A DNA stretch of 64,000 bases, from the IMG/VR virus record IMGVR_UViG_3300031994_000064, positions 1 through 64,000 of that record, one strand, 5' to 3'. Origin of the DNA: a virus. Its lineage: Duplodnaviria; Caudoviricetes. The first letter of the stretch is position 1, and every line of letters starts with the position of its first letter. This document shows positions 2,740 to 60,653 of this stretch, piece by piece. Below the pieces are notes generated by a model that was given only the letters and a program-made list of their open reading frames with translations, made no database searches and was not told where the DNA came from. The position numbers and the translations under genes are program-made.

Positions 2740-3018
2740 ATGAAAAATTCCGAATTGATTTACAGATTTGTCGCGGGAACCGCCCGCGACGGACAGCACA
2801 CCGGAAGTGTGTCTGTCAAGGACAACAAACTCTATTCCTACGCAACCTGCATCGCGGAGCGCGTCGTGGACAAAATCGTGGTGAACGAAACCAAGTATTC
2901 CGTCACCACGTCCAAGCACCAAAGTTATCTGTATGGTGCTATCCGCCGCTACAACGAGTGCGCGGAATTCGTGAACGGCATAATGCGCGAGACGTACCGC
3001 CTTTCGGATGCCGTTTAA
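2740..3018 (+). CDS. Early hypothetical protein (92 aa)
   Basis: ORF with A-rich translation-initiation leader. Confidence 0.8.
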   Translation: MKNSELIYRFVAGTARDGQHTGSVSVKDNKLYSYATCIAERVVDKIVVNETKYSVTTSKHQSYLYGAIRRYNECAEFVNGIMRETYRLSDAV

Positions 3019-3083
3019 CCATCAAGGAAATCGGGCGGGAGACTGCCCGACTTCCTCTAAATTCACTTAAAAATCCAATTATT

Positions 3084-3269
3084 ATGAGCAAACTTATGAT
3101 TTCCTCCGTGGTCATGCAGACCATAGGAGTGGCTTTATGGATTGCCGCGTGCGTTGTCAAGGCGGCGAACGGGATTTCTGACGGATGGGTTGATGCCGCC
3201 GTCCTTGTGCAGGCTGTCGGCTTGCTTCCGGTATTGATTGAATCAAAGATTGAGGAACGCAAGTTGTAG
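3084..3269 (+). CDS. Small two-TM membrane protein (61 aa)
   Basis: Internal ATG of ORF 2958-3269 after the ATTCACTTAAAAATCCAATTATT leader; two hydrophobic segments. Confidence 0.7.
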   Translation: MSKLMISSVVMQTIGVALWIAACVVKAANGISDGWVDAAVLVQAVGLLPVLIESKIEERKL

Positions 3270-3336
3270 GTAACCAACGGGCGGACGGTCTTTGCGGGCT
3301 GTCCGCTTGCTACAATTCACTTAAAAAATCAGTATT

Positions 3337-3516
3337 ATGGAAAACTTTATCTGTTATGTCACGGGATTGTTCAACCGTGACTCCGAGTTGAGCAGAAACG
3401 CTCAGAATGTCCGAACGATTGTCAGCGAGGAGCTTTCCTCGATGAACGAATGCGTCACGGACTACATTGTTCGCACCATTTCTTCCGCCGTATGCGGCAA
3501 CTTGGGGATTGCGTAG
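3337..3516 (+). CDS. Small hypothetical protein (59 aa)
   Basis: Translated by hand (MENFICYVTGLFNRDSEL...GNLGIA); below the ORF-track cutoff; same leader type as its neighbours. Confidence 0.65.
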   Translation: MENFICYVTGLFNRDSELSRNAQNVRTIVSEELSSMNECVTDYIVRTISSAVCGNLGIA

Positions 3517-3586
3517 GCGAACGACTTTATCCCGAACGACCTTTGCGGGTTGCTCGGGAGCGAATTATTCACTAAAATCAAAAAAA

Positions 3587-4033
3587 ATGGGAATTATAGA
3601 ACAAATCGAAAAAACGTACAAGGACAATCCGATGTACATGGTTAAGTTCTCTATAAACTACGAAGGAGAGAACTATGACGGTCTTGAAATCGGAGACGTT
3701 GAACAATCCGAAATGCAATGCGGAACTATGGTTCAGTACCAGCCGATAACATACGAAGGAGTTGAAGTTGGATATGTACGAGACCGCATTTCAGGGAAAC
3801 TGTTTGACCCTCCTGTTCAGTCTTACTGCCATTTTTTAGCCGACTGTTCAGAAGATGATATTCTTACTTACGAACAGAAGTCCGATGTTCATTTCGCAGA
3901 CTGCGGAGAACATTTTGAAATGCAGTTTGCAACGATGAAGGATTTGTGGAATTATGTTTACAACGCTGGCGTCCTTGACGAAATCATTGCAAAAAAAGAA
4001 CTTGCTGAGGAATACGGCGGGTTTTATTGCTAA
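3587..4033 (+). CDS. Acidic hypothetical protein (148 aa)
   Basis: Internal ATG of ORF 3467-4033 after a TTCACT leader. Confidence 0.75.
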   Translation: MGIIEQIEKTYKDNPMYMVKFSINYEGENYDGLEIGDVEQSEMQCGTMVQYQPITYEGVEVGYVRDRISGKLFDPPVQSYCHFLADCSEDDILTYEQKSDVHFADCGEHFEMQFATMKDLWNYVYNAGVLDEIIAKKELAEEYGGFYC

Positions 4034-4109
4034 AAATTATCCGTGGTGAGGCTTGGCCGCCTTTCCATGGGCGAAAATTCACTTATGTTTAACCAAAAAA
4101 TTAGTCATT

Positions 4110-4604
4110 ATGGAAAAGAAAATGATTTCAGTTTTAGAGGATGATTTCAACCGTCTTAAAAGAGAGGTTGAGGAACTTCGTGCAGAGAACAGAGAACTCC
4201 GCAGAGGCAGCGAGCGGTACGACTACCGCGAGCAGGTGACTTCCGATGTCAAAGACGCTGTTTATGAGCGTTACACAAAAGAGGAAATTCGTGAGCGATT
4301 GGAAGACCGCAATGACTTCGAAGAGGAGTTGAACGATGACCTCTTCATGTCGGATTCAGTGACTGGCAACGCGAGTGGCTCTTACTTCTGCAATACGTGG
4401 AAAGCCGAGAACGCTCTTATGCACAACCTTGACTTGCTTGGAGAGGCAATCGAAGAGTTTGGCGGTGTCGGTAATGTTCTTGAAGGCGGAGCCGAGGTTT
4501 GCGATGTTACAATCCGCTGCTACTTGCTTGCAGAGTGTATCTCGGATGCCATTGACGAAATCGAGGATGAACTTGACGAAGAGAGCGAAGAAGACGAAGA
4601 ATAA
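4110..4604 (+). CDS. Acidic phage hypothetical protein with DSVTGNASGSY motif
   Basis: Internal ATG; motif recalled from uncharacterised gut-phage proteins. Confidence 0.8.
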   Translation: MEKKMISVLEDDFNRLKREVEELRAENRELRRGSERYDYREQVTSDVKDAVYERYTKEEIRERLEDRNDFEEELNDDLFMSDSVTGNASGSYFCNTWKAENALMHNLDLLGEAIEEFGGVGNVLEGGAEVCDVTIRCYLLAECISDAIDEIEDELDEESEEDEE

Positions 4605-17883: not shown

Positions 17884-17891
17884 TATCTTTG
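17884..17891 (+). promoter_or_regulatory. Bacteroidota sigma -7 element (TATCTTTG)
   Basis: Consensus match upstream of 17945. Confidence 0.65.
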
Positions 17892-17944: not shown

Positions 17945-18244
17945 ATGAAAAGATTTGAAGGAAAGAAGTGCATCATCAGGAGTTATGGTGCAGGGGTGTT
18001 CTTCGGAACGCTCGAAAAGGTAGAGGATAACAACTGCGTGGTGTTGTCTGACGTGCGGCGCATTCATTTCTGGGACGGCGCGGCTTCTTTGAGCCAGCTT
18101 GCCACCGAAGGGGTGAAGAGACCTCACAACTGCAGATTTTCCGTTGTAGTGCCGTCATGTGCTGTGACGGGGGTGCTTGAAATCATTCCTTGCAGCGACG
18201 AGGCGATTAGAAACATTATGTCCGTGCCTGTATGGAAGCAATAG
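17945..18244 (+). CDS. DUF6948-like small protein
   Basis: CIIRSYGAGVFFG...VRRIHFWDGAASLSQLATEGV motif, as recalled. Confidence 0.7.
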   Translation: MKRFEGKKCIIRSYGAGVFFGTLEKVEDNNCVVLSDVRRIHFWDGAASLSQLATEGVKRPHNCRFSVVVPSCAVTGVLEIIPCSDEAIRNIMSVPVWKQ

Positions 18245-18969
18245 AGCGATGGGTTAAATACAACCTTGGAACTGATGGCTATGGCTATGGTGGTGGCTCT
18301 GGCTATGGCTCTGGCTCTGGCTATGGCTCTGGCTATGGCTCTGGCTATGGCTATGGCGATGGCTCTGGCTCTGGCTATGGCTCTGGCACTGGCGATGGCT
18401 CTGGCTCTGGCTATGGCTCTGGCTCTGGCTCTGGCTATGGCTCTGGCGATGGCTCTGGCTCTGGCGATGGCGATGGCTCTGGCGATGGCGATGGCTGTTT
18501 GAGTACTTATTGTGGAAAAAAAGTGCATTATATAGACGGTATACCCACTGTCATTCACTCCATACGCGGTGCTTTCGCTAAAGCGGGTGTTATACAAAAG
18601 GATTTCACCGAAAAGCCATGCTATTTGGCAAAAGGTAAAGGATTTTTTGCACATGGTGAGACCGTGAAGGAAGCCGCCACTGCACTGGAAGCGAAAATTG
18701 CCGAGAATAAACCGATTGAATTAAGGATTGAGCGTTTCGTGCAGAAATATCCGACCATTGACAGTGTGGCCGAGAACAAGGAATTGTTCATTTGGCACCA
18801 CATTTTAACGGGCAGCTGCGAGTTCGGCAGACGCGAGTTTGCGAAGAAACATGACATAGATGTGGAGCATGGCAGAATGACCGTTTGCAGATTCATTGAG
18901 TTGACCGAAGAAGAATATAGTGGAAGAATAATAGCTTTGTTAAAGCAAAAATACGAAAAATCGAATTAA
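18232..18969 (+). CDS. Protein with Gly/Ser/Tyr/Asp hexanucleotide-repeat tract and conserved C-terminal domain
   Basis: GYGSGSG low-complexity block followed by ...WHHILTGSCEFGRREF. Confidence 0.8.
   Translation: MEAIERWVKYNLGTDGYGYGGGSGYGSGSGYGSGYGSGYGYGDGSGSGYGSGTGDGSGSGYGSGSGSGYGSGDGSGSGDGDGSGDGDGCLSTYCGKKVHYIDGIPTVIHSIRGAFAKAGVIQKDFTEKPCYLAKGKGFFAHGETVKEAATALEAKIAENKPIELRIERFVQKYPTIDSVAENKELFIWHHILTGSCEFGRREFAKKHDIDVEHGRMTVCRFIELTEEEYSGRIIALLKQKYEKSN
18277..18494 (+). repeat. In-frame GGCTCT/GGCTAT/GGCGAT hexamer minisatellite
   Basis: Directly visible tandem hexamers. Confidence 0.9.
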
Positions 18970-18978
18970 AACAACAAT

Positions 18979-19054
18979 AAATCACCTTACGTGGTATGGG
19001 TAGAGGACGTGGAATGGTCGGCATTGGCTGACACGTTGAAGCGTCAATCTATTT
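18979..19054 (+). mobile_element. Orphan copy A of the TnpB right-end/omegaRNA 3' module
   Basis: 69/76 identical to 25245-25320 (reverse complement), aligned by hand. Confidence 0.85.
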
Positions 19055-19084
19055 AACAAAAAAAATAAAACAACGTAGAACAAT

Positions 19085-19585
19085 ATGTTTCAGATAGAAG
19101 GCATTTTAAGAGAAATCACGCCGGTGCAGTCCGGCACATCGGCACAAGGAAACTCGTGGCAACGCTGCGAGGCAATCGTAGAAGCACAAGACGGTCAATA
19201 TGTCACAACCTACGTCTTCACCGTCTTCAACAAAGACATCACAATCCACGTAGGCTCTACCGTGGTATGCGACTTTTATGTAAAATCACAGAACTACAAC
19301 GGAAAGTGGTTCACAAATCTGAATTTGTTTAAGATGGAGCCAAGCGTCCAACAGCCGACATACCAACCTCCGGCACAGCCGCAGTACAACAACCAAGGCT
19401 ATCAGCAGCCGATGCAGCAGCAACCGAGACGGCAACCCGCACCGCAGATGCCCGCGCAACCCGTAAGACCGACACCCGCACCAGCACCGCAGCAATACCA
19501 GCAACCGCAGATGCCGCCGATGCCGACTGCACCCGTGCCGAAACAAGGCGCGTCCGTTGAGGAGGTCAACGACCTGCCGTTCTAA
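19085..19585 (+). CDS. DUF3127-like single-stranded DNA-binding protein
   Basis: OB-fold-like N-terminus (SGTSAQGNSWQR), Gln/Pro-rich linker, SSB-type DLPF tail. Confidence 0.8.
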   Translation: MFQIEGILREITPVQSGTSAQGNSWQRCEAIVEAQDGQYVTTYVFTVFNKDITIHVGSTVVCDFYVKSQNYNGKWFTNLNLFKMEPSVQQPTYQPPAQPQYNNQGYQQPMQQQPRRQPAPQMPAQPVRPTPAPAPQQYQQPQMPPMPTAPVPKQGASVEEVNDLPF

Positions 19586-19628: not shown

Positions 19629-20543
19629 ATGGTACAACAACAAAACCAAATCCAACAGCAGCAGCCGAAACTCGGCATCGCCGCACTCAAAAACGTCCTC
19701 AACAACGACGCTATCAAACAGAAATTTGCAGATATGCTCGGCAAAGAATCGCAAGGGTTTATAACGAGCGTTATTGCTGTTTGCTCAAACAACCAGCTTC
19801 TTGCAAAAGCAGACGCTAACAGTATTGTTCTTGCGGCTTCTCTTGCGGCAGGAATGAAGCTACCGATAAACCCAAATCTGGGTTATGCGGCTATTGTTCC
19901 GTTTAGAGACGGCAAAACAGGAATCACTACAGGAACCATGCAAATAATGCGCAATGGTTGGGTAGAGCTTGCTTTGCGTACTGGAAAAGTTGCGAAAATA
20001 ACCAACGAACTCGTTTACGAGGGAGAACTTGTCAGCAAAAACCGCTTTACCGATGAGTATGTGTTTGACGAAACAAAGCGCGTGTCAGACAAGGTTATAG
20101 GCGCGATGGCATACGTTAAATTGACGAAAGAAATGGGAGGTCTTGAAAAGACCGTTTACTGGACTACCGAACAGTGCTTAAAACACGGCAAGAGATATTC
20201 GCAAACATTCAGAAAAGGCTACGGACTTTGGGTTTCCGACCCGGAAAGTATGTTTTTGAAAAGCGTGCTAAAGCATTTGATTGTCAAATATGTTCCAAAA
20301 TCTATCGAGCTACAAAAAGCTATTGATTCAGACCAAGCCGCGTTCACTGGCGACATCGACAACCCGAAACCTGTTTACGTTGACAATCCGCACGAGGAGG
20401 AGGTCGGCGAACCAGTCGATTTCGAGGAGGTCGATACCGAAAGCGGCGAGGTTCAGCAAGAGGAAGAACCCAAAACAACCATCGTTGTCGAGGATGACGA
20501 GCCGACCAACGGCGAACTTTTCAACGAAAAAGAACAACAATAG
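19629..20543 (+). CDS. recT: RecT/Red-beta family single-strand annealing protein
   Basis: LPINPNLGYAAIVPF, QIMRNGWVELALRTG, MFLKSVLK; acidic tail. Confidence 0.85.
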   Translation: MVQQQNQIQQQQPKLGIAALKNVLNNDAIKQKFADMLGKESQGFITSVIAVCSNNQLLAKADANSIVLAASLAAGMKLPINPNLGYAAIVPFRDGKTGITTGTMQIMRNGWVELALRTGKVAKITNELVYEGELVSKNRFTDEYVFDETKRVSDKVIGAMAYVKLTKEMGGLEKTVYWTTEQCLKHGKRYSQTFRKGYGLWVSDPESMFLKSVLKHLIVKYVPKSIELQKAIDSDQAAFTGDIDNPKPVYVDNPHEEEVGEPVDFEEVDTESGEVQQEEEPKTTIVVEDDEPTNGELFNEKEQQ

Positions 20544-24921: not shown

Positions 24922-25212
24922 TTATCTTTGTGTTTCAATCTTTATTCCGAGTTTAAGCGCGATGAAATGCTCAAGTTTCGCACCATGAGAGGCTTTCCAC
25001 CCTTTGAGCATATAGATGCCGTCGCAATTGACGAGCAAAGGAATCACTGTCTGCATACATTTCTTCCAAGACCATGACACATTGCAGTGCTTTGTAGGGT
25101 TCACGGGTTCGTCTCCGCGAGAATACAAGAACTCTTCTGCTTTTGCGAAATTGTCCATCGCCTGCTCATAGGGCAAACCGCTGACTTGACCTGCAATATA
25201 AATTTTACTCAC
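24922..25212 (-). CDS. DUF4406 (nucleoside deoxyribosyltransferase-like) protein
   Basis: KIYIAGQVSG...PVNP...CDGIYMLKGW..S.GA.LEH. Confidence 0.8.
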   Translation of the reverse strand: MSKIYIAGQVSGLPYEQAMDNFAKAEEFLYSRGDEPVNPTKHCNVSWSWKKCMQTVIPLLVNCDGIYMLKGWKASHGAKLEHFIALKLGIKIETQR

Positions 25213-25227
25213 GTGATTTCTCCTTTC

Positions 25228-26436
25228 TTATTTTGTTAATAATGAAATAGATTGACGTTTCATCGTGTCAGCCAATTCCGACCACTCCGCGTCCTCTACC
25301 CCTACCACGTAGGGTGATTTATTGTTGTTTGTTAAATTCTGTTCTTGCAAACCGAATCTTAGAATGTTCACGGCGGCGAGCAAGTCCCTGTCATTGTCGC
25401 GACCGCATGACGGGCACACCCATCTTCGCTGTGACAGCTTCAAGTCTTTGTAAACGCTACCGCACAAGCACATCTTTGAACTCGGCTCGAAACGCCCGAT
25501 GCGCACAAGGTTTTTGCCGTACCAATCGCATTTATATTGCAACTGTCTGAAAAATTCAGACCACGCAACAGAGCTTATGCTTTTGGCGAGGCAATGGTTT
25601 TTAAGCATTCCGTCCACATTCAAGTCCTCAACGACTATGGTTTGGTTCTCACGCACAATCTTCGATGTTACTTGGTGAATAAAATTGGTACGCTTGTTTC
25701 TTATGCGCTCATGCTGTTTTGCGACTGCAAGTTTTGCGCGTTCTCTGCGTTTGCTGCCTTTCTGCTTTTTCGCAAGCCGTCTTTGCAGCACTTTGAGACG
25801 CTTTTCCTCTTTTTCAAGAAATTTAGGATTCTCGAACACTTGACCGTTTGAAAGCACGGCAAAATCCTTGATGCCAACGTCTATACCAACCGATGTATTA
25901 AAATCAATCATCGGCTTTTCGGGCATCGGCTTGCCGTCATCAACGGTTATAGATATATAGTATTTGTTAGTCGGCGATTTAGAAACGGTGCAAGTACCAA
26001 TTTTTCCTACAAAAGTTCTGTCGCAGGCAAACTTCACCTTGCCGACTTTTGGCATCTTAACACGCTTATTATCAAAATCAACGAATACGCAGTCAACAAA
26101 CTGAAACGAGTTTCTGTTTCTTTTCTTTGACTTGAATTTCGGGAAACCTTTCTTTTCTCTGAAAAAGCGGGTAAACGCGGCATCCATATTGCGTATTGAC
26201 GATTGCAGAGATTGATTTGAAACCTCGGACAGCCATTCTGTCTCTTCTTGTTTTTTAAGGCTTGTGAGTTCTTTTGCGATAGACACATAGCTGAGCCTTT
26301 CGCCGCTGTTTTGGTATGTTTCAATCCTTCTCTGCAACGCCCAATTATAGACATATCGGCAGCAGCCAAACGATTTCTCAAAAAAAGTCGCTTGTTCCGC
26401 TGTTGGGTATAGCCTATATTTGTACGATTTAATCAT
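25228..26436 (-). CDS. tnpB: TnpB RNA-guided endonuclease (IS200/IS605)
   Basis: MIKSYKYRLYPT HTH, RuvC GIDVGIKD / IVVEDL / DRDLLAAVNI, zinc finger; probable start ATG 26436 just after TATATTTG (26441-26448). Confidence 0.95.
   Translation of the reverse strand: MIKSYKYRLYPTAEQATFFEKSFGCCRYVYNWALQRRIETYQNSGERLSYVSIAKELTSLKKQEETEWLSEVSNQSLQSSIRNMDAAFTRFFREKKGFPKFKSKKRNRNSFQFVDCVFVDFDNKRVKMPKVGKVKFACDRTFVGKIGTCTVSKSPTNKYYISITVDDGKPMPEKPMIDFNTSVGIDVGIKDFAVLSNGQVFENPKFLEKEEKRLKVLQRRLAKKQKGSKRRERAKLAVAKQHERIRNKRTNFIHQVTSKIVRENQTIVVEDLNVDGMLKNHCLAKSISSVAWSEFFRQLQYKCDWYGKNLVRIGRFEPSSKMCLCGSVYKDLKLSQRRWVCPSCGRDNDRDLLAAVNILRFGLQEQNLTNNNKSPYVVGVEDAEWSELADTMKRQSISLLTK
25245..25320 (-). ncRNA. TnpB right end / omegaRNA 3' scaffold ending in GTCAA, followed by flank-derived guide
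   Basis: Overlaps the tnpB 3' end; two hairpins; TCAA boundary at 25252-25255. Confidence 0.7.
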
Positions 26437-39273: not shown

Positions 39274-39957
39274 CTACTCGCCTTGTTCGGCTTTCAAGGC
39301 TTCTCCTGCGGCTTTGATGGTTTCCTTGATTTTTTCAAGGTGGCTTGCCGAGCCTGCGCCGCGAGGTGTCAAGTCGTCGTCTTCGGGCATTTCCGAGAAG
39401 AACTCGTTGTACATCTCAAGGTAGCTTTCGGCTTCCGCTTCGATGTCGGTGTTCTCGTCAATCTTCGCCTTGTCGAGCATTGATTTCACCCATTTGTCGT
39501 TCTTGACACCTTTCTTCTTGATTTCGGCGGCAAGCTGTTCGCGTTTCTGACCAATGGTCTTTTTCGTTTCTTCGGCTTGCTTTTCGTCCTCAAGCTTTTT
39601 CAAGCGTTCTTCCAACTTGGCGATGGTCTCGTCTTTCTTGCCGTCATCGTTGCCGACCTCGTCTTTTTTTTTCTTTTTCGCAGGCTCTTCGATTTGCTTT
39701 TTCAGCTCCTCGATTTGCTTGTTAAAATTCTCGGCGAGGGTCGAATTGGCTTTGTTAATGTGACCTTTCTGCGTTTCAAGCATTTTAACGGCTTTTTCCG
39801 CAAAAGCGTCAAGTTCGATTTCGCTGTCTTCACCAACAAGTTCGCATAGGGTCTCTACGTGTTCCTTGATGGTTCGTTCCCAATCGGCGATTTTTTCTAC
39901 CTTTTTTGAGAACATTGCCGTGATTTTTTCACGGGCTTCCTCTTTTGTGAATTTCAC
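39274..39957 (-). CDS. Capsid scaffolding protein (putative)
   Basis: Highly charged coiled-coil protein heading the head operon; GTG start. Confidence 0.65.
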   Translation of the reverse strand: MKFTKEEAREKITAMFSKKVEKIADWERTIKEHVETLCELVGEDSEIELDAFAEKAVKMLETQKGHINKANSTLAENFNKQIEELKKQIEEPAKKKKKDEVGNDDGKKDETIAKLEERLKKLEDEKQAEETKKTIGQKREQLAAEIKKKGVKNDKWVKSMLDKAKIDENTDIEAEAESYLEMYNEFFSEMPEDDDLTPRGAGSASHLEKIKETIKAAGEALKAEQGE

Positions 39958-39979
39958 GTTGTTCTATTTTTTTTAAGTT

Positions 39980-40055
39980 AAATAGATTGACGCTTCATCG
40001 TATCAACCAATGTTGACTACTCCACGTCCTCTACCCCTACCACGTAGGGTGATTT
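39980..40055 (-). mobile_element. Orphan copy C of the TnpB right-end/omegaRNA 3' module
   Basis: 68/76 identical to 25245-25320, with compensatory changes in hairpin 2. Confidence 0.85.
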
Positions 40056-40112
40056 AAGTTAGTTTATGTTTTTATCTTTTTTCAATTTCCTGTTCGTTTT
40101 GGATTAACGCGG

Positions 40113-40189
40113 CAAAAATAACAATTATTTTGTATTTTTTTATTATTCGGAGGGAAAAATCGTCCTATGACGTTTTTTTTGTATTTTTG
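40113..40189. promoter_or_regulatory. Divergent sigma promoter pair (head/tail operon leftward, terminase/portal operon rightward)
   Basis: TATTTTTG at 40113-40120 (minus) and 40182-40189 (plus). Confidence 0.7.
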
Positions 40190-40208: not shown

Positions 40209-41813
40209 ATGTCCGAGATAAAAATCATACGACCGCAAGCTGGATTTCAGGAGAAGTTCTGCCGTACCAATGTGGATTTCTGCATTGGCGGCGGCTTATT
40301 GAACTCTGGCAAGTCGTATGCTTCCGTTTTGGCTTGCGCACAAGCGGTTTCAGACCCGAATTTCCGCGCTTTGTACTTGCGTAACAACCTCGGCGACTTG
40401 AAGGCAGGCGGCGGTATCGCCGATACGTTCAGAGAGATTTTCGGCGAAAGCATAAAGATTGTCGAGTCCGGCGACCCGCACATCAATTTCCCAAGCGGGG
40501 CGGTCATAGACCTCACGCACGTCGCCAACCAAAGCAGAGAAGCAATACGACAGCGTTTCAAAGGACGTCAGTACGATTTGATTGTGTTCGACGAAGGAAC
40601 GGGTTACACTTGGGAATGTCTTACCGAGATTATGACACGTAACCGTGGCAAGGGAAGCTGGACGGGTCACGTGCTTATGACCACCAACCCCGAAAAAGAC
40701 CATTGGATTCGCACGTTCATAGACTGGTACATCGGCGAAGACGGCTACATCAGAGAAGACCGAAACGGTGTGGTGCGCTATTTCTACATCAACGGCGAAA
40801 CCGTCAACGATGTTGTGTGGGGCGACACGAAAGAGGATGTATTCAACAAGTGCCGTGTCGAAATATCGCAGCGTCTGCGCAAAATGAACGGCAAGAAAGA
40901 GATTTTCAAGTGGCAAGACCTCATAAAGTCTTTCACATTCTATCTTGGCAGTATGTCCGAGAACGTAGCGTCCATCAGCGGCAATAGCGGTTATGCGGCA
41001 TCAGTGGCGATGGTCGGCGGTCGTGCCGCCCAGCAATACCTTGAGGGCAACTGGAACGTCAGCACCAAAGGCGACCTAAACTCACCGATACCGCAGGCAC
41101 TCGCAGAATCCGTGTTTGACAACGACCCAATGACCAACGGCGACCGATGGATTACCGCAGACCTCGCCGATACTGGGACAGACAACTTCATTGCGCTTGT
41201 ATGGGACGGCTTTCACGTCTTTGACATGGTTGTAGCAGGAAGAACAACGCCAAGAGAAAATGCGGATATTCTCAAAAACCTGTGCAGCAAACACAAGATA
41301 CCAGAAACAAATGTGATTTTCGACGCGACTGGAGGCGTTTATCTGAAAGACTACATGCCTACCGCGATTGCATATTACTCTAACGCTTCTCCGATGGGCG
41401 TGTACATGAACCGCTATATGAAGCTGAAAGACGAATGCTACGGGCGTTTGTGCACTCTGATAAAAGAACACAGCATTTCTTTCTCCGAAGACCTCGCCAA
41501 CAAGATATACTCGCATCCGCTTTTGAGCGACAAGATAACCATCAAGGAAGAGTTCAAAGAGGAATGCGCGTGCGTGAAGTTCAAGGACGACACCGGCATA
41601 CGCAGGTCGCTGATTACGAAACGAGAGATGAGAAAGCTGCTCGGCAAGTTCCGTTCGCCCGACTTGTTAGACCCTTGCGCGATGCGGATGATGCCCATAT
41701 TGAGATACGCGAACGGCGAGGAACTGATAAAGACAAGCGCGTACCGAAAAGACGATGAAGATGAAATGGATGGACTTACTGTCAACGTGTTCGACGATAC
41801 AACTTGGTGTTAA
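40209..41813 (+). CDS. terL: Terminase large subunit
   Basis: RPQAGFQ adenine-binding motif, Walker A GGGLLNSGKS, Walker B LIVFDEG, coupling motif TTNP, nuclease DLADTGTD ... SPDLLD. Confidence 0.92.
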   Translation: MSEIKIIRPQAGFQEKFCRTNVDFCIGGGLLNSGKSYASVLACAQAVSDPNFRALYLRNNLGDLKAGGGIADTFREIFGESIKIVESGDPHINFPSGAVIDLTHVANQSREAIRQRFKGRQYDLIVFDEGTGYTWECLTEIMTRNRGKGSWTGHVLMTTNPEKDHWIRTFIDWYIGEDGYIREDRNGVVRYFYINGETVNDVVWGDTKEDVFNKCRVEISQRLRKMNGKKEIFKWQDLIKSFTFYLGSMSENVASISGNSGYAASVAMVGGRAAQQYLEGNWNVSTKGDLNSPIPQALAESVFDNDPMTNGDRWITADLADTGTDNFIALVWDGFHVFDMVVAGRTTPRENADILKNLCSKHKIPETNVIFDATGGVYLKDYMPTAIAYYSNASPMGVYMNRYMKLKDECYGRLCTLIKEHSISFSEDLANKIYSHPLLSDKITIKEEFKEECACVKFKDDTGIRRSLITKREMRKLLGKFRSPDLLDPCAMRMMPILRYANGEELIKTSAYRKDDEDEMDGLTVNVFDDTTWC

Positions 41814-60081: not shown

Positions 60082-60630
60082 TTAACTTAAAACTTTCGTG
60101 ATTATCGGCAAGGCTGCGTATTCAACAGCCTGCAACTGGTTAGGTATCTGCGAATCGTACACGTAAGGGCAATGACCAATCAGGTTGTTGAACTTTAGCT
60201 CAATCTCGATGTATTTCATGCCCTTGTAGTTGTCTTCTTTGACCTCGACCGCGCTTATGAGCGTCATCACAGCCATCTTGCGGCGAACGTTGTCCCAAAA
60301 GACGACTGGCAGTGTGCCGGAGACAAGCCCTATCACGGTGTTCATATCGTCATTGCCATTGGCTATTGACGGGTCTCTTCTTACCACAAGGTCTAAGGTT
60401 ATGGTTGTCGCCTCTCTCGTGATTACTTCGGGGAAGTCGGCTCTCACCGTATCACTGTCGGCGTATGTCTCTGTGTATATGTTCTTCACTTTTCCGAAAT
60501 CCTCAAGACCAGTGCATTTTCGGTAAAGCAGCGTTCTGCCAGTCCCGAGAACGTAGTTGTTGATGTCAGTCCAAGTCCAAGAACTGTTTGCGTATTTTCC
60601 TATATATACGTGTACGTCTTGTATTTCCAC
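60082..60630 (-). CDS. Hypothetical protein, possibly distal-tail (Dit)-like
   Basis: KCTGL..FGKVKNIYTETYAD...TTITLDLVV...FWDNVR pattern recalls Dit-like proteins; unverified. Confidence 0.5.
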   Translation of the reverse strand: MEIQDVHVYIGKYANSSWTWTDINNYVLGTGRTLLYRKCTGLEDFGKVKNIYTETYADSDTVRADFPEVITREATTITLDLVVRRDPSIANGNDDMNTVIGLVSGTLPVVFWDNVRRKMAVMTLISAVEVKEDNYKGMKYIEIELKFNNLIGHCPYVYDSQIPNQLQAVEYAALPIITKVLS

Positions 60631-60653
60631 GTGATTTCTATTTTAATTGTTAA

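What the first reader, a model, noticed from the sequence alone, without database searches (positions are those of the whole stretch)
18979..19054. Orphan TnpB right-end/omegaRNA module (copy A) in front of the SSB gene
Seen: 76 nt, 69/76 identical to the 3' end of tnpB (25245-25320), with no tnpB remnant upstream. It is in sense orientation, and its TCAA boundary lies 38 nt before the SSB start. All three copies share TCTATTT after TCAA, the position of the guide seed, then diverge. Known: TnpB guides come from the flank 3' of the right end, and duplication of such ends is proposed as a route from TnpB to CRISPR-like arrays. Inference: a dispersed set of trans-acting guide modules for one TnpB, or deletion relics of elements homing to a shared gene-leader motif.
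Basis: partly seen in the sequence, partly recalled or inferred. Interest (0 to 1): 0.8.

Follow-up and report, generated by a model that had tools for sequence, protein, structure and literature searches.

The report
Orphan TnpB guide-RNA scaffold before SSB gene
A 107-base leftover of a TnpB jumping element, reduced to its guide-RNA scaffold, fills the gap in front of a rumen-type phage's SSB gene; such stand-alone scaffolds are already known, and this copy looks partly eroded.

Summary
The repeat is real: 69/76 matches to the tnpB 3' end, with no tnpB remnant beside it.

- **Extent.** The module is about 107 nt (18968/18970-19075). It fills the spacer between an intact upstream gene and the SSB-RecT genes.
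- **Copies.** The 83-kb phage holds two full tnpB elements, one outside the window. It also holds two orphan modules (A here, C at 40.0 kb) and a 25-nt relic.
- **Structure.** Twenty-two TnpB-linked 3' ends from other phages share a covarying fold of four stems plus a pseudoknot. This is the plan of the 116-nt ISDra2 omegaRNA scaffold.
- **Boundary.** The fold runs 28 nt past TCAA. TCTATTT is the 5' strand of stem 4, not a guide seed. Any guide would start at 19076 and span the SSB ATG.
- **State of copy A.** It matches the model end to end (86 bits). All four of its private substitutions break pairs, and stems 1 and 4 are weakened. Sister copy C changed only by compensated substitutions.

Best reading: a stand-alone omegaRNA scaffold that is drifting. 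Trans use by the phage's two TnpBs is possible but unshown. The kind is known (stand-alone omegaRNAs, PATEs). Earlier agents of this scan had already described copies B, C and D of this genome. No relative covering site A could be fetched.

The parts
18968..19075 (+). Orphan right-end/omegaRNA scaffold module, copy A. It begins at or within the stop codon of the upstream gene and ends with ...AACG.
   Evidence: BLAST and repeat matches. Full-length match to covariance model R1 at 18970-19076, 86.4 bits. 3' end placed by homology to the copy D empty-site junction.
18985..18999 (+). Stem 1 (18985-89 with 18995-99). Its loop, 18990-18994, is the 5' strand of the pseudoknot. In copy A the middle pair is U.U (18987/18997).
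   Evidence: Covariation in 22 TnpB-linked copies. A-specific changes. Hairpin energy -2.7 against -8.4 kcal/mol in the other copies.
19006..19045 (+). Stem 2 (19006-10 with 19041-45) enclosing stem 3 (19014-22 with 19027-34). The basal pair of stem 3 is A.C in copy A (19014).
19048..19069 (+). Stem 4, the guide-proximal hairpin. TCTATTT (19048-54) pairs with 19063-69. G to A at 19068 leaves a C.A mismatch, and the hairpin no longer folds on its own.
19071..19075 (+). 3' strand of the pseudoknot, the last scaffold bases. One G.A mismatch is shared with copy C.
   Evidence: Pseudoknot paired in 22 of 22 sequences, with 2 compensated pairs. Tail comparison.
19076..19091 (+). Position a 16-nt guide would occupy (inferred). 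It spans the SSB start codon 19085-19087.
   Evidence: Flank begins with T in every copy. 16-nt guide length taken from ISDra2 (PMC10097598). No second near-match in the genome.
19085..19585 (+). SSB-like gene (DUF3127 / phrog_4932). Its start is intact.
   Evidence: N-terminus MFQ invariant in 17 homologues.
19629..20543 (+). RecT-type annealing protein gene.
18232..18969 (+). Upstream gene (Gly/Ser/Tyr repeats plus a conserved C-domain). It is full length, and its stop TAA lies at the module's 5' edge.
17884..17891 (+). Bacteroidota-type -7 box (TAnnTTTG with the phage's extended context). It is the likely promoter of the operon that contains copy A.
   Evidence: Inferred, not shown.
25212..26436 (-). 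tnpB-1 (ATG 26436, stop 25228) with its scaffold, copy B (25212-25330). The promoter box lies in the left end at about 26448.
39957..40066 (-). Orphan module, copy C. It shares copy A's 5' boundary and derived tail.
60629..60653 (-). 25-nt relic of the right-end tail, abutting the GTG start of ORF 60630..60082.

Best explanation
Copy A is a stand-alone copy of the omegaRNA scaffold (right end) of the ISDra2-like TnpB elements living in this phage. It has neither the nuclease gene nor a left end.

It occupies the whole spacer between an intact upstream gene and the SSB-RecT genes. It is probably transcribed inside that operon. It belongs to the same orphan lineage as copy C.

In outline it keeps all parts of the scaffold: four stems, a pseudoknot and a tail that abuts the flank. 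Its own substitutions have weakened stem 1 (the pseudoknot platform) and stem 4. It is therefore most likely a drifting leftover, tolerated as an intercistronic leader, rather than an efficient guide module.

If one of the phage's two TnpBs still loads it, the guide would be 19076-19091. Its targets would be SSB alleles without the insert.

Shown: homology, structure, boundaries and the pair-breaking changes. Inferred: transcription, loading and loss of function.
For: **It derives from the TnpB element**
- The same roughly 110-nt element ends the tnpB genes of two full copies here and of many other IMG/VR phages whose TnpB is 61-94% identical.
- TnpB-1 has all three Pfam TnpB domains.
- Its closest solved natural structure is ISDra2 TnpB, E 1e-79. 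In the one alignment printed, to the top-ranked AI-designed nuclease, the RuvC-motif acidic residues line up.

**The structure is real**
- 39 pairs are 94.7% paired, and 17 pairs carry double changes. 0 of 500 shuffles reach these values.
- The pseudoknot is 100% paired.
- The plan equals that of the ISDra2 116-nt scaffold, whose 5' extension is dispensable (PMC10097598).

**Copy A is complete in outline**
- Model positions 1-111 match at 86.4 bits.

**Copy A is eroding**
- Its four private substitutions (18987, 18997, 19014, 19068) all hit paired positions and break three pairs.
- Two of those pairs are never unpaired in the 22 linked copies.
- Stem 1 falls from -8.4 to -2.7 kcal/mol. Stem 4 falls from between -2.2 and -4.0 to 0.
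- Copy C changed only by compensated substitutions.
- A 25-nt tail relic elsewhere shows that such ends are left behind by deletion.

**Context**
- Both neighbouring genes are intact.
- There is no terminator at the module and no convincing promoter next to it.
Against: - Four substitutions are few. All four falling in paired positions has a chance of about 0.1 under neutrality (my estimate from about 60 paired of 106 positions). Decay is therefore suggested, not proven.
- They come from one genome and may not be fixed in the population.
- Stems 2 and 3 are the most stable of any copy, and the overall model score equals that of TnpB-linked copy B.
- A and C share the same 5' boundary, just upstream of stem 1, and the same derived tail. 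Random deletion relics would not be expected to agree like this. It hints at selection for, or propagation of, the scaffold as a unit.
- Copy C sits in a 160-nt island that is 100% identical between phages whose flanks are 50-92% identical. That fits an active role for this orphan lineage.
Confidence: 0.55

Rival explanations
1. Copy A is a working trans-acting guide module. It is co-transcribed with the operon, its 5' end is processed by TnpB, and it is loaded by TnpB-1 or TnpB-2. It then directs cleavage of co-infecting relatives whose SSB start region lacks the insert and sits next to a TAM. The phage's own SSB-RecT recombination system repairs the break from the module-bearing genome, giving RNA-guided homing or marker exclusion.
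For: - Copy A matches the scaffold model end to end.
- Two apparently intact cognate TnpB genes lie in the same genome.
- The copy is in sense orientation inside an operon.
- The ISDra2 scaffold needs only its last 116 nt.
- Stand-alone omegaRNAs have been shown to work in trans with compatible effectors (PMC10691335).
- Sister copy C shows compensated changes and a 100%-identity island across diverged phages.
- The right-end tail differs from the A-rich motif found 5' of targets in relatives. Self-cleavage would therefore be avoided.
Against: - Stem 1 (the pseudoknot platform) and stem 4 are weakened by A-specific changes.
- There are no expression data.
- The TAM is only inferred.
- No empty or occupied site A could be found in any accessible DNA collection.
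Confidence: 0.3
2. The module has been co-opted as a cis-acting RNA element of the SSB-RecT message, independent of TnpB. It could be a stable structure that sets an mRNA processing or stability point, plus an A-rich unstructured leader that helps SD-poor Bacteroidota-type translation starts.
For: - Every copy, and the 25-nt relic, lies immediately 5' of a gene in the same sense. In B, C, D and the relic the tail even supplies the G of a GTG start.
- The A-rich loop and tail of stem 4 precede the SSB ATG by 9 nt.
- Stems 2 and 3 are very stable in copy A.
Against: - This placement is equally explained by the insertion preference, an AAA|T motif that A-rich leaders offer.
- There is no evidence of selection on copy A.
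- SSB homologues exist, but their leaders could not be fetched.
Confidence: 0.1
3. The repeat is the phage's own regulatory repeat, and the tnpB genes merely landed next to two copies of it.
For: All copies sit in gene leaders.
Against: - The element is conserved, with covariation, at the 3' end of TnpB genes in many unrelated phage contigs and contexts.
- It overlaps the last ~30-39 codons of the tnpB reading frame (residues 380-407 recur in copy A).
- At site D a related phage lacks the element together with tnpB.
Confidence: 0.03

Closest known systems
ISDra2 TnpB omegaRNA (reRNA) scaffold (Karvelis 2021, PMC8612924; Nakagawa 2023, PMC10097598)
   Same: - The protein is the closest natural solved relative (E 1e-79).
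- The RNA overlaps the end of tnpB and runs to the right end.
- It has four stems plus a pseudoknot between the stem-1 loop and the bases just 5' of the guide.
- The functional part is about 110 nt.
   Different: - There is no sequence similarity to the ISDra2 RNA that I could test.
- Stem 1 is smaller.
- There is no TnpA here.
- Related elements have inverted ends and 8-bp duplications instead of IS200/IS605-type ends.
- Copy A has no adjacent tnpB.
Stand-alone omegaRNAs of OMEGA systems (Altae-Tran 2021, as summarised in PMC10691335)
   Same: It is an effector-less scaffold in the same genome as compatible effector loci, so it could add target sites without duplicating the nuclease.
   Different: - Those were shown to work in trans; here nothing is shown.
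- This one sits in a phage operon, directly before a gene start.
- It is partly eroded.
PATEs: protein-less IS200/IS605 derivatives (Meers 2023, bioRxiv 10.1101/2023.03.14.532601)
   Same: It is a short non-coding derivative that can encode an omegaRNA needing TnpB in trans.
   Different: PATEs keep both a left and a right end and are mobilised by TnpA. Copy A has no left end, and the phage has no TnpA.
Free-standing homing endonucleases of T-even phages: intronless homing and marker exclusion (reviewed in PMC13565253)
   Same: This is a functional analogy only. A phage-borne nuclease cuts rival genomes at a site that the carrier has altered, and recombination spreads the locus.
   Different: - Target choice would be RNA-guided.
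- The guide module would be separate from the nuclease gene.
- None of this is shown here.

Membership tests
TnpB omegaRNA scaffold / right end of an ISDra2-like TnpB element | Homology to the 3' end of a bona fide tnpB element | tested here: met
   69/76 to copy B. 86-97 nt repeats. The same element ends tnpB genes of other phages. TnpB domains. ISDra2 is the closest natural solved structure.
TnpB omegaRNA scaffold / right end of an ISDra2-like TnpB element | Conserved fold: stems plus a pseudoknot next to the guide, supported by covariation | tested here: met
   Met for the family: 17 pairs with double changes, pseudoknot 100% paired. Copy A matches the model end to end, but three pairs are broken and one pseudoknot mismatch is present.
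TnpB omegaRNA scaffold / right end of an ISDra2-like TnpB element | Scaffold ends at the transposon boundary and is followed by a variable flank (the guide) | tested here: met
   Flanks diverge after ...CACC/CACG in more than 20 contexts. The empty site for copy D places the end after CACG.
TnpB omegaRNA scaffold / right end of an ISDra2-like TnpB element | The RNA is made, bound by TnpB and guides cleavage | not testable with these tools
   No transcript or biochemical data.
Stand-alone omegaRNA | No effector gene adjacent, with a compatible effector elsewhere in the genome | tested here: met
   No tnpB remnant at copy A. Two full tnpB genes at 25.2-26.4 kb and 77.3-78.5 kb.
Stand-alone omegaRNA | Works in trans with that effector | not testable with these tools
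   Needs RIP-seq or an interference assay.
PATE / MITE-like IS200/IS605 derivative | Both a left end and a right end flank a protein-less core | tested here: not met
   BLAST of the whole tnpB-1 element against the genome finds only the right-end part at copies A and C.
IS200/IS605 family (parent element) | Y1 TnpA, or ends of that type without inverted repeats or target duplications | tested here: not met
   No Y1_Tnp in the phage. Related elements show ~28-bp inverted ends and 8-bp duplications: 3 exact and 4 at 7 of 8. For the copies in this phage the left end is unclear.
CRISPR-like array | Adjacent repeats separated by short spacers | tested here: not met
   The copies are 6-39 kb apart and each stands alone.
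Described RNA families (Rfam 15) | Match to a curated model | tested here: not met
   Only tRNAs in the window. Nothing at 18850-19150 even at E up to 10.

The most novel reading that the evidence does not exclude
The two TnpB genes and the two orphan scaffolds form a dispersed multi-guide weapon of the phage. The orphans sit in the leaders of the recombination (SSB-RecT) and head operons. They would supply extra guides that let TnpB cut co-infecting relatives lacking these inserts, and phage recombination would then copy the modules and neighbouring genes into the rival. That would be an RNA-guided form of phage marker exclusion, and a natural step from one-guide transposons towards multi-guide systems.
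Probability: 0.2. Interest if true: 0.8.

Novelty: new member of a known kind. Interest (0 to 1): 0.38.

Why it matters
If the orphan scaffolds are used, a phage would be running a small RNA-guided homing or exclusion system with guides separated from the nuclease. That bears on how single-guide TnpB elements could become multi-guide systems, and on how phages compete.

As it stands, copy A mainly documents three things:
- how TnpB elements decay inside a tightly packed phage genome;
- where the scaffold really ends in this clade;
- that a conserved motif after TCAA is structure, not a guide.

Tried and rejected
**Relatives of site A: none obtained**
- IMG/VR with the SSB protein: no relative.
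- IMG/VR with an alignment of 17 SSB homologues: only a 28% relative.
- IMG/VR with RecT: best relative 60%, without synteny.
- Species genomes: none.
- GenBank phages: only tRNA matches.
- A 22-nt core pattern found only the known relatives of copies B/D and C in IMG/VR and JGI metagenomes, and nothing in species genomes.

**Other negative results**
- Rfam: no family.
- Own promoter for copy A: TAGCTTTG at 18932 lacks the phage's extended promoter context. No terminator at the module.
- Left-end remnant at copy A: none.
- Second target for a guide from copy A: none with fewer than 4 mismatches in the genome or in fetched loci.

**Readings considered and dropped**
- A target duplication around copy A. 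An exact 9-nt direct repeat, TAAAACAAC, sits at 18967-75 and 19066-74. The 5' copy is homologous to tnpB-internal sequence in full elements, and all copies have a similar built-in repeat, so I do not read it as a duplication.
- An upstream coding-region hairpin as part of the scaffold. It covaries in relatives (helix 1) and lies outside both orphans. By analogy with ISDra2 the 5' extension is dispensable, but this is not tested for this clade.

Full report
**Setting**

The window is the first 64 kb of an 82,983-bp IMG/VR phage record with direct terminal repeats, rated complete. Its promoters are of the Bacteroidota TAnnTTTG type. The related contigs carry JGI metagenome identifiers. An earlier agent of this scan calls the phage a sheep-rumen phage; I did not check the source.

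- 18979-19054 matches the reverse complement of 25245-25320 at 69 of 76 positions.
- A 30-nt core is found twice, against none in shuffles.
- The repeat finder extends the match to 86 nt against copy B and 97 nt against copy C.
- The TnpB protein finds only its residues 380-407 at 18970-19053 and nothing upstream.

A whole-genome search changes the inventory.
- A fourth copy lies at 78456-78553. It ends a second full tnpB (402 aa, 94% identical in protein, 91% in DNA) outside the window.
- A 25-nt piece of the element's tail sits at 60629-60653 (-), abutting the GTG start of another gene.
- The phage therefore has two full elements, two orphan modules (A and C) and one stub.

**The repeat belongs to the TnpB element, not to the phage**

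- TnpB-1 (ATG 26436, stop 25228) has the HTH, OrfB_IS605 and Cas12f1-like TNB domains.
- Its closest natural solved relative is ISDra2 TnpB, E 1e-79. In the printed alignment, to the top-ranked designed nuclease, the RuvC acidic residues line up.
- Eighty TnpB loci from other IMG/VR contigs were fetched. Those with 61-94% protein identity carry a recognisable version of the same element at the end of the gene, in many genomic contexts.
- At site D a related phage lacks both the tnpB gene and the repeat.

**Structure and true boundary**

In relatives the conserved sequence does not stop at CGTCAA. It continues for about 30 nt and ends at ...CACC, after which the flanks differ. In this phage the corresponding end is ...CACG in B, D and L005, and ...AACG in A and C.

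An alignment of 22 TnpB-linked ends gives a consensus of four stems. Twelve of its 25 pairs carry compensated changes. I then counted a structure I named myself, adding a pseudoknot between the stem-1 loop and the last five scaffold bases.
- 94.7% of cells are paired, and 17 pairs carry double changes.
- 0 of 500 shuffles reach these values, and sliding the partners collapses the signal.
- The pseudoknot is paired in 22 of 22 sequences with two compensated pairs. One of them is the G-C to C-G swap that separates this phage's clade from the rest.

This is the plan described for the ISDra2 omegaRNA. That RNA has a 116-nt scaffold of four stems and a pseudoknot formed by bases -5 to -3 with the stem-1 loop, and its longer 5' part is dispensable (PMC10097598).

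TCTATTT is the 5' strand of stem 4 and pairs with AAATAGA. It is conserved because it is structure. At site D, homology to the related phage resumes at base 78565, right after CACG. By homology, copy A ends at 19075. A 16-nt guide would be 19076-19091, spanning the SSB ATG at 19085.

**Copy A in detail**

Covariance model R1 was built only from TnpB-linked copies. It matches 18970-19076 over all 111 positions at 86.4 bits. For comparison, B scores 86.8, C 90.2, and D and L005 about 100.

The module starts at the stop codon of the upstream gene. That gene is full length compared with its homologues. The module ends 9 nt before the SSB ATG. The SSB N-terminus is invariant among 17 homologues. 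SSB (phrog_4932, DUF3127) is followed by RecT.

The nearest convincing promoter is at 17884, two genes upstream. There is no terminator at the module. Co-transcription is likely but not shown.

**Signs of erosion**

Against B, C, D and L005, copy A has four private substitutions inside the module: 18987, 18997, 19014 and 19068. All four lie in paired positions.
- They turn a C-G of stem 1 into U.U.
- They turn the basal G-C of stem 3 into A.C.
- They turn a C-G of stem 4 into C.A.
- The first two pairs are never unpaired in the 22 linked copies.

Taken alone, stem 1 drops from -8.4 to -2.7 kcal/mol, and stem 4 no longer folds. Stems 2 and 3 are the most stable of any copy. Copy C, by contrast, differs by five changes in stem 3 that all keep pairing. 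The sample is small: by my estimate, four of four in paired positions has a probability of about 0.1 under neutrality.

**Points that argue against a mere random relic**

- A and C begin within two bases of each other, about 16 nt upstream of stem 1.
- They share a derived tail (AACG context) that differs from the ancestral one kept by all TnpB-linked copies. They look like one orphan lineage.
- Copy C lies in a 160-nt island, 40120-39961, that is 100% identical to four related contigs whose flanks are 50-92% identical.
- I cannot say how an orphan without a left end reached two loci.

**Mobility context**

- The phage has no Y1 transposase.
- In the better-sampled relatives the elements are bounded by ~28-bp inverted ends. 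They often carry 8-bp direct duplications: three exact, four at 7 of 8.
- The three bases before the duplication are A in 16-19 of 21 sites, and the first duplicated base is T in 17 of 21 (my count).
- This suggests an AAA|T target or TAM. It would explain why copies land in A-rich leaders at or near ATG.
- In B, C, D and the stub, the last scaffold G plus the flank's TG make a GTG start, as earlier agents of this scan reported. Copy A is the exception: its junction reads GTA and SSB keeps its own ATG.

**Comparison with what is known**

Stand-alone omegaRNAs in genomes with compatible effectors are known and were shown to work in trans (PMC10691335). Protein-less PATEs that encode omegaRNAs are also described. 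Copy A is a new member of that kind, sitting in a phage operon. It is not a PATE, because it has no left end. It is not an array.

**Verdict**

- Identity as a TnpB right-end/omegaRNA orphan: near certain.
- Present function: open. I put 0.55 on a drifting leftover, 0.30 on a still-working trans guide and 0.10 on a TnpB-independent leader role.
- No DNA of a relative covering site A could be obtained.

Noticed in passing
genome 77299-78564 (outside the window; L002:344-1609): Second full TnpB element (tnpB 77335-78543, 402 aa, 94% identical to TnpB-1). In a related phage (L085:2050-2302) the site instead holds a ~250-nt small ORF. Both variants are bounded by the same ATGAC motif.
   Followed up: partly
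window 60629-60653 (-): A 25-nt stub identical to the right-end tail of the L005 variant sits directly before the GTG start of ORF 60630..60082. It is a much shorter leftover of the same element.
   Followed up: partly
L009, L013, L023, L024, L070 and others (around 2896-4227 in each locus): TnpB elements 61-64% identical in protein have ~28-bp terminal inverted repeats and 8-bp target duplications, with an AAA|T motif in front. These are DDE-transposon-like ends around an ISDra2-like TnpB and are not expected for IS200/IS605. Several loci also hold solo or tandem ends.
   Followed up: partly
L086:2428-3475 and L088:5662-6709, equal to window 40310-40313: Related phages carry an in-frame ~349-codon insertion in the large terminase gene, with LAGLIDADG homing-endonuclease domains (an intein). 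This phage lacks it.
   Followed up: yes
window 39961-40120: A 160-nt island, from the promoter -7 box through copy C to the scaffold-gene start, is 100% identical to four related contigs. The DNA on both sides is only 50-92% identical.
   Followed up: partly
window 18232-19585: The best database relatives of the SSB are 92-97% identical, but the best relative of the gene just upstream is only 67%. This suggests a mosaic junction at copy A. It could not be checked at DNA level.
   Followed up: partly
window 18246-18532: Tandem 12/18-nt repeats encode a Gly/Ser/Tyr/Asp-rich N-terminal tract of the gene upstream of copy A. Tract length varies widely among homologues.
   Followed up: no
window 18967-18975 and 19066-19074: An exact 9-nt direct repeat, TAAAACAAC, brackets copy A. 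Copy C has an 8-of-10 counterpart. Its meaning is unclear (a built-in scaffold repeat, microhomology for the deletion, or chance).
   Followed up: partly
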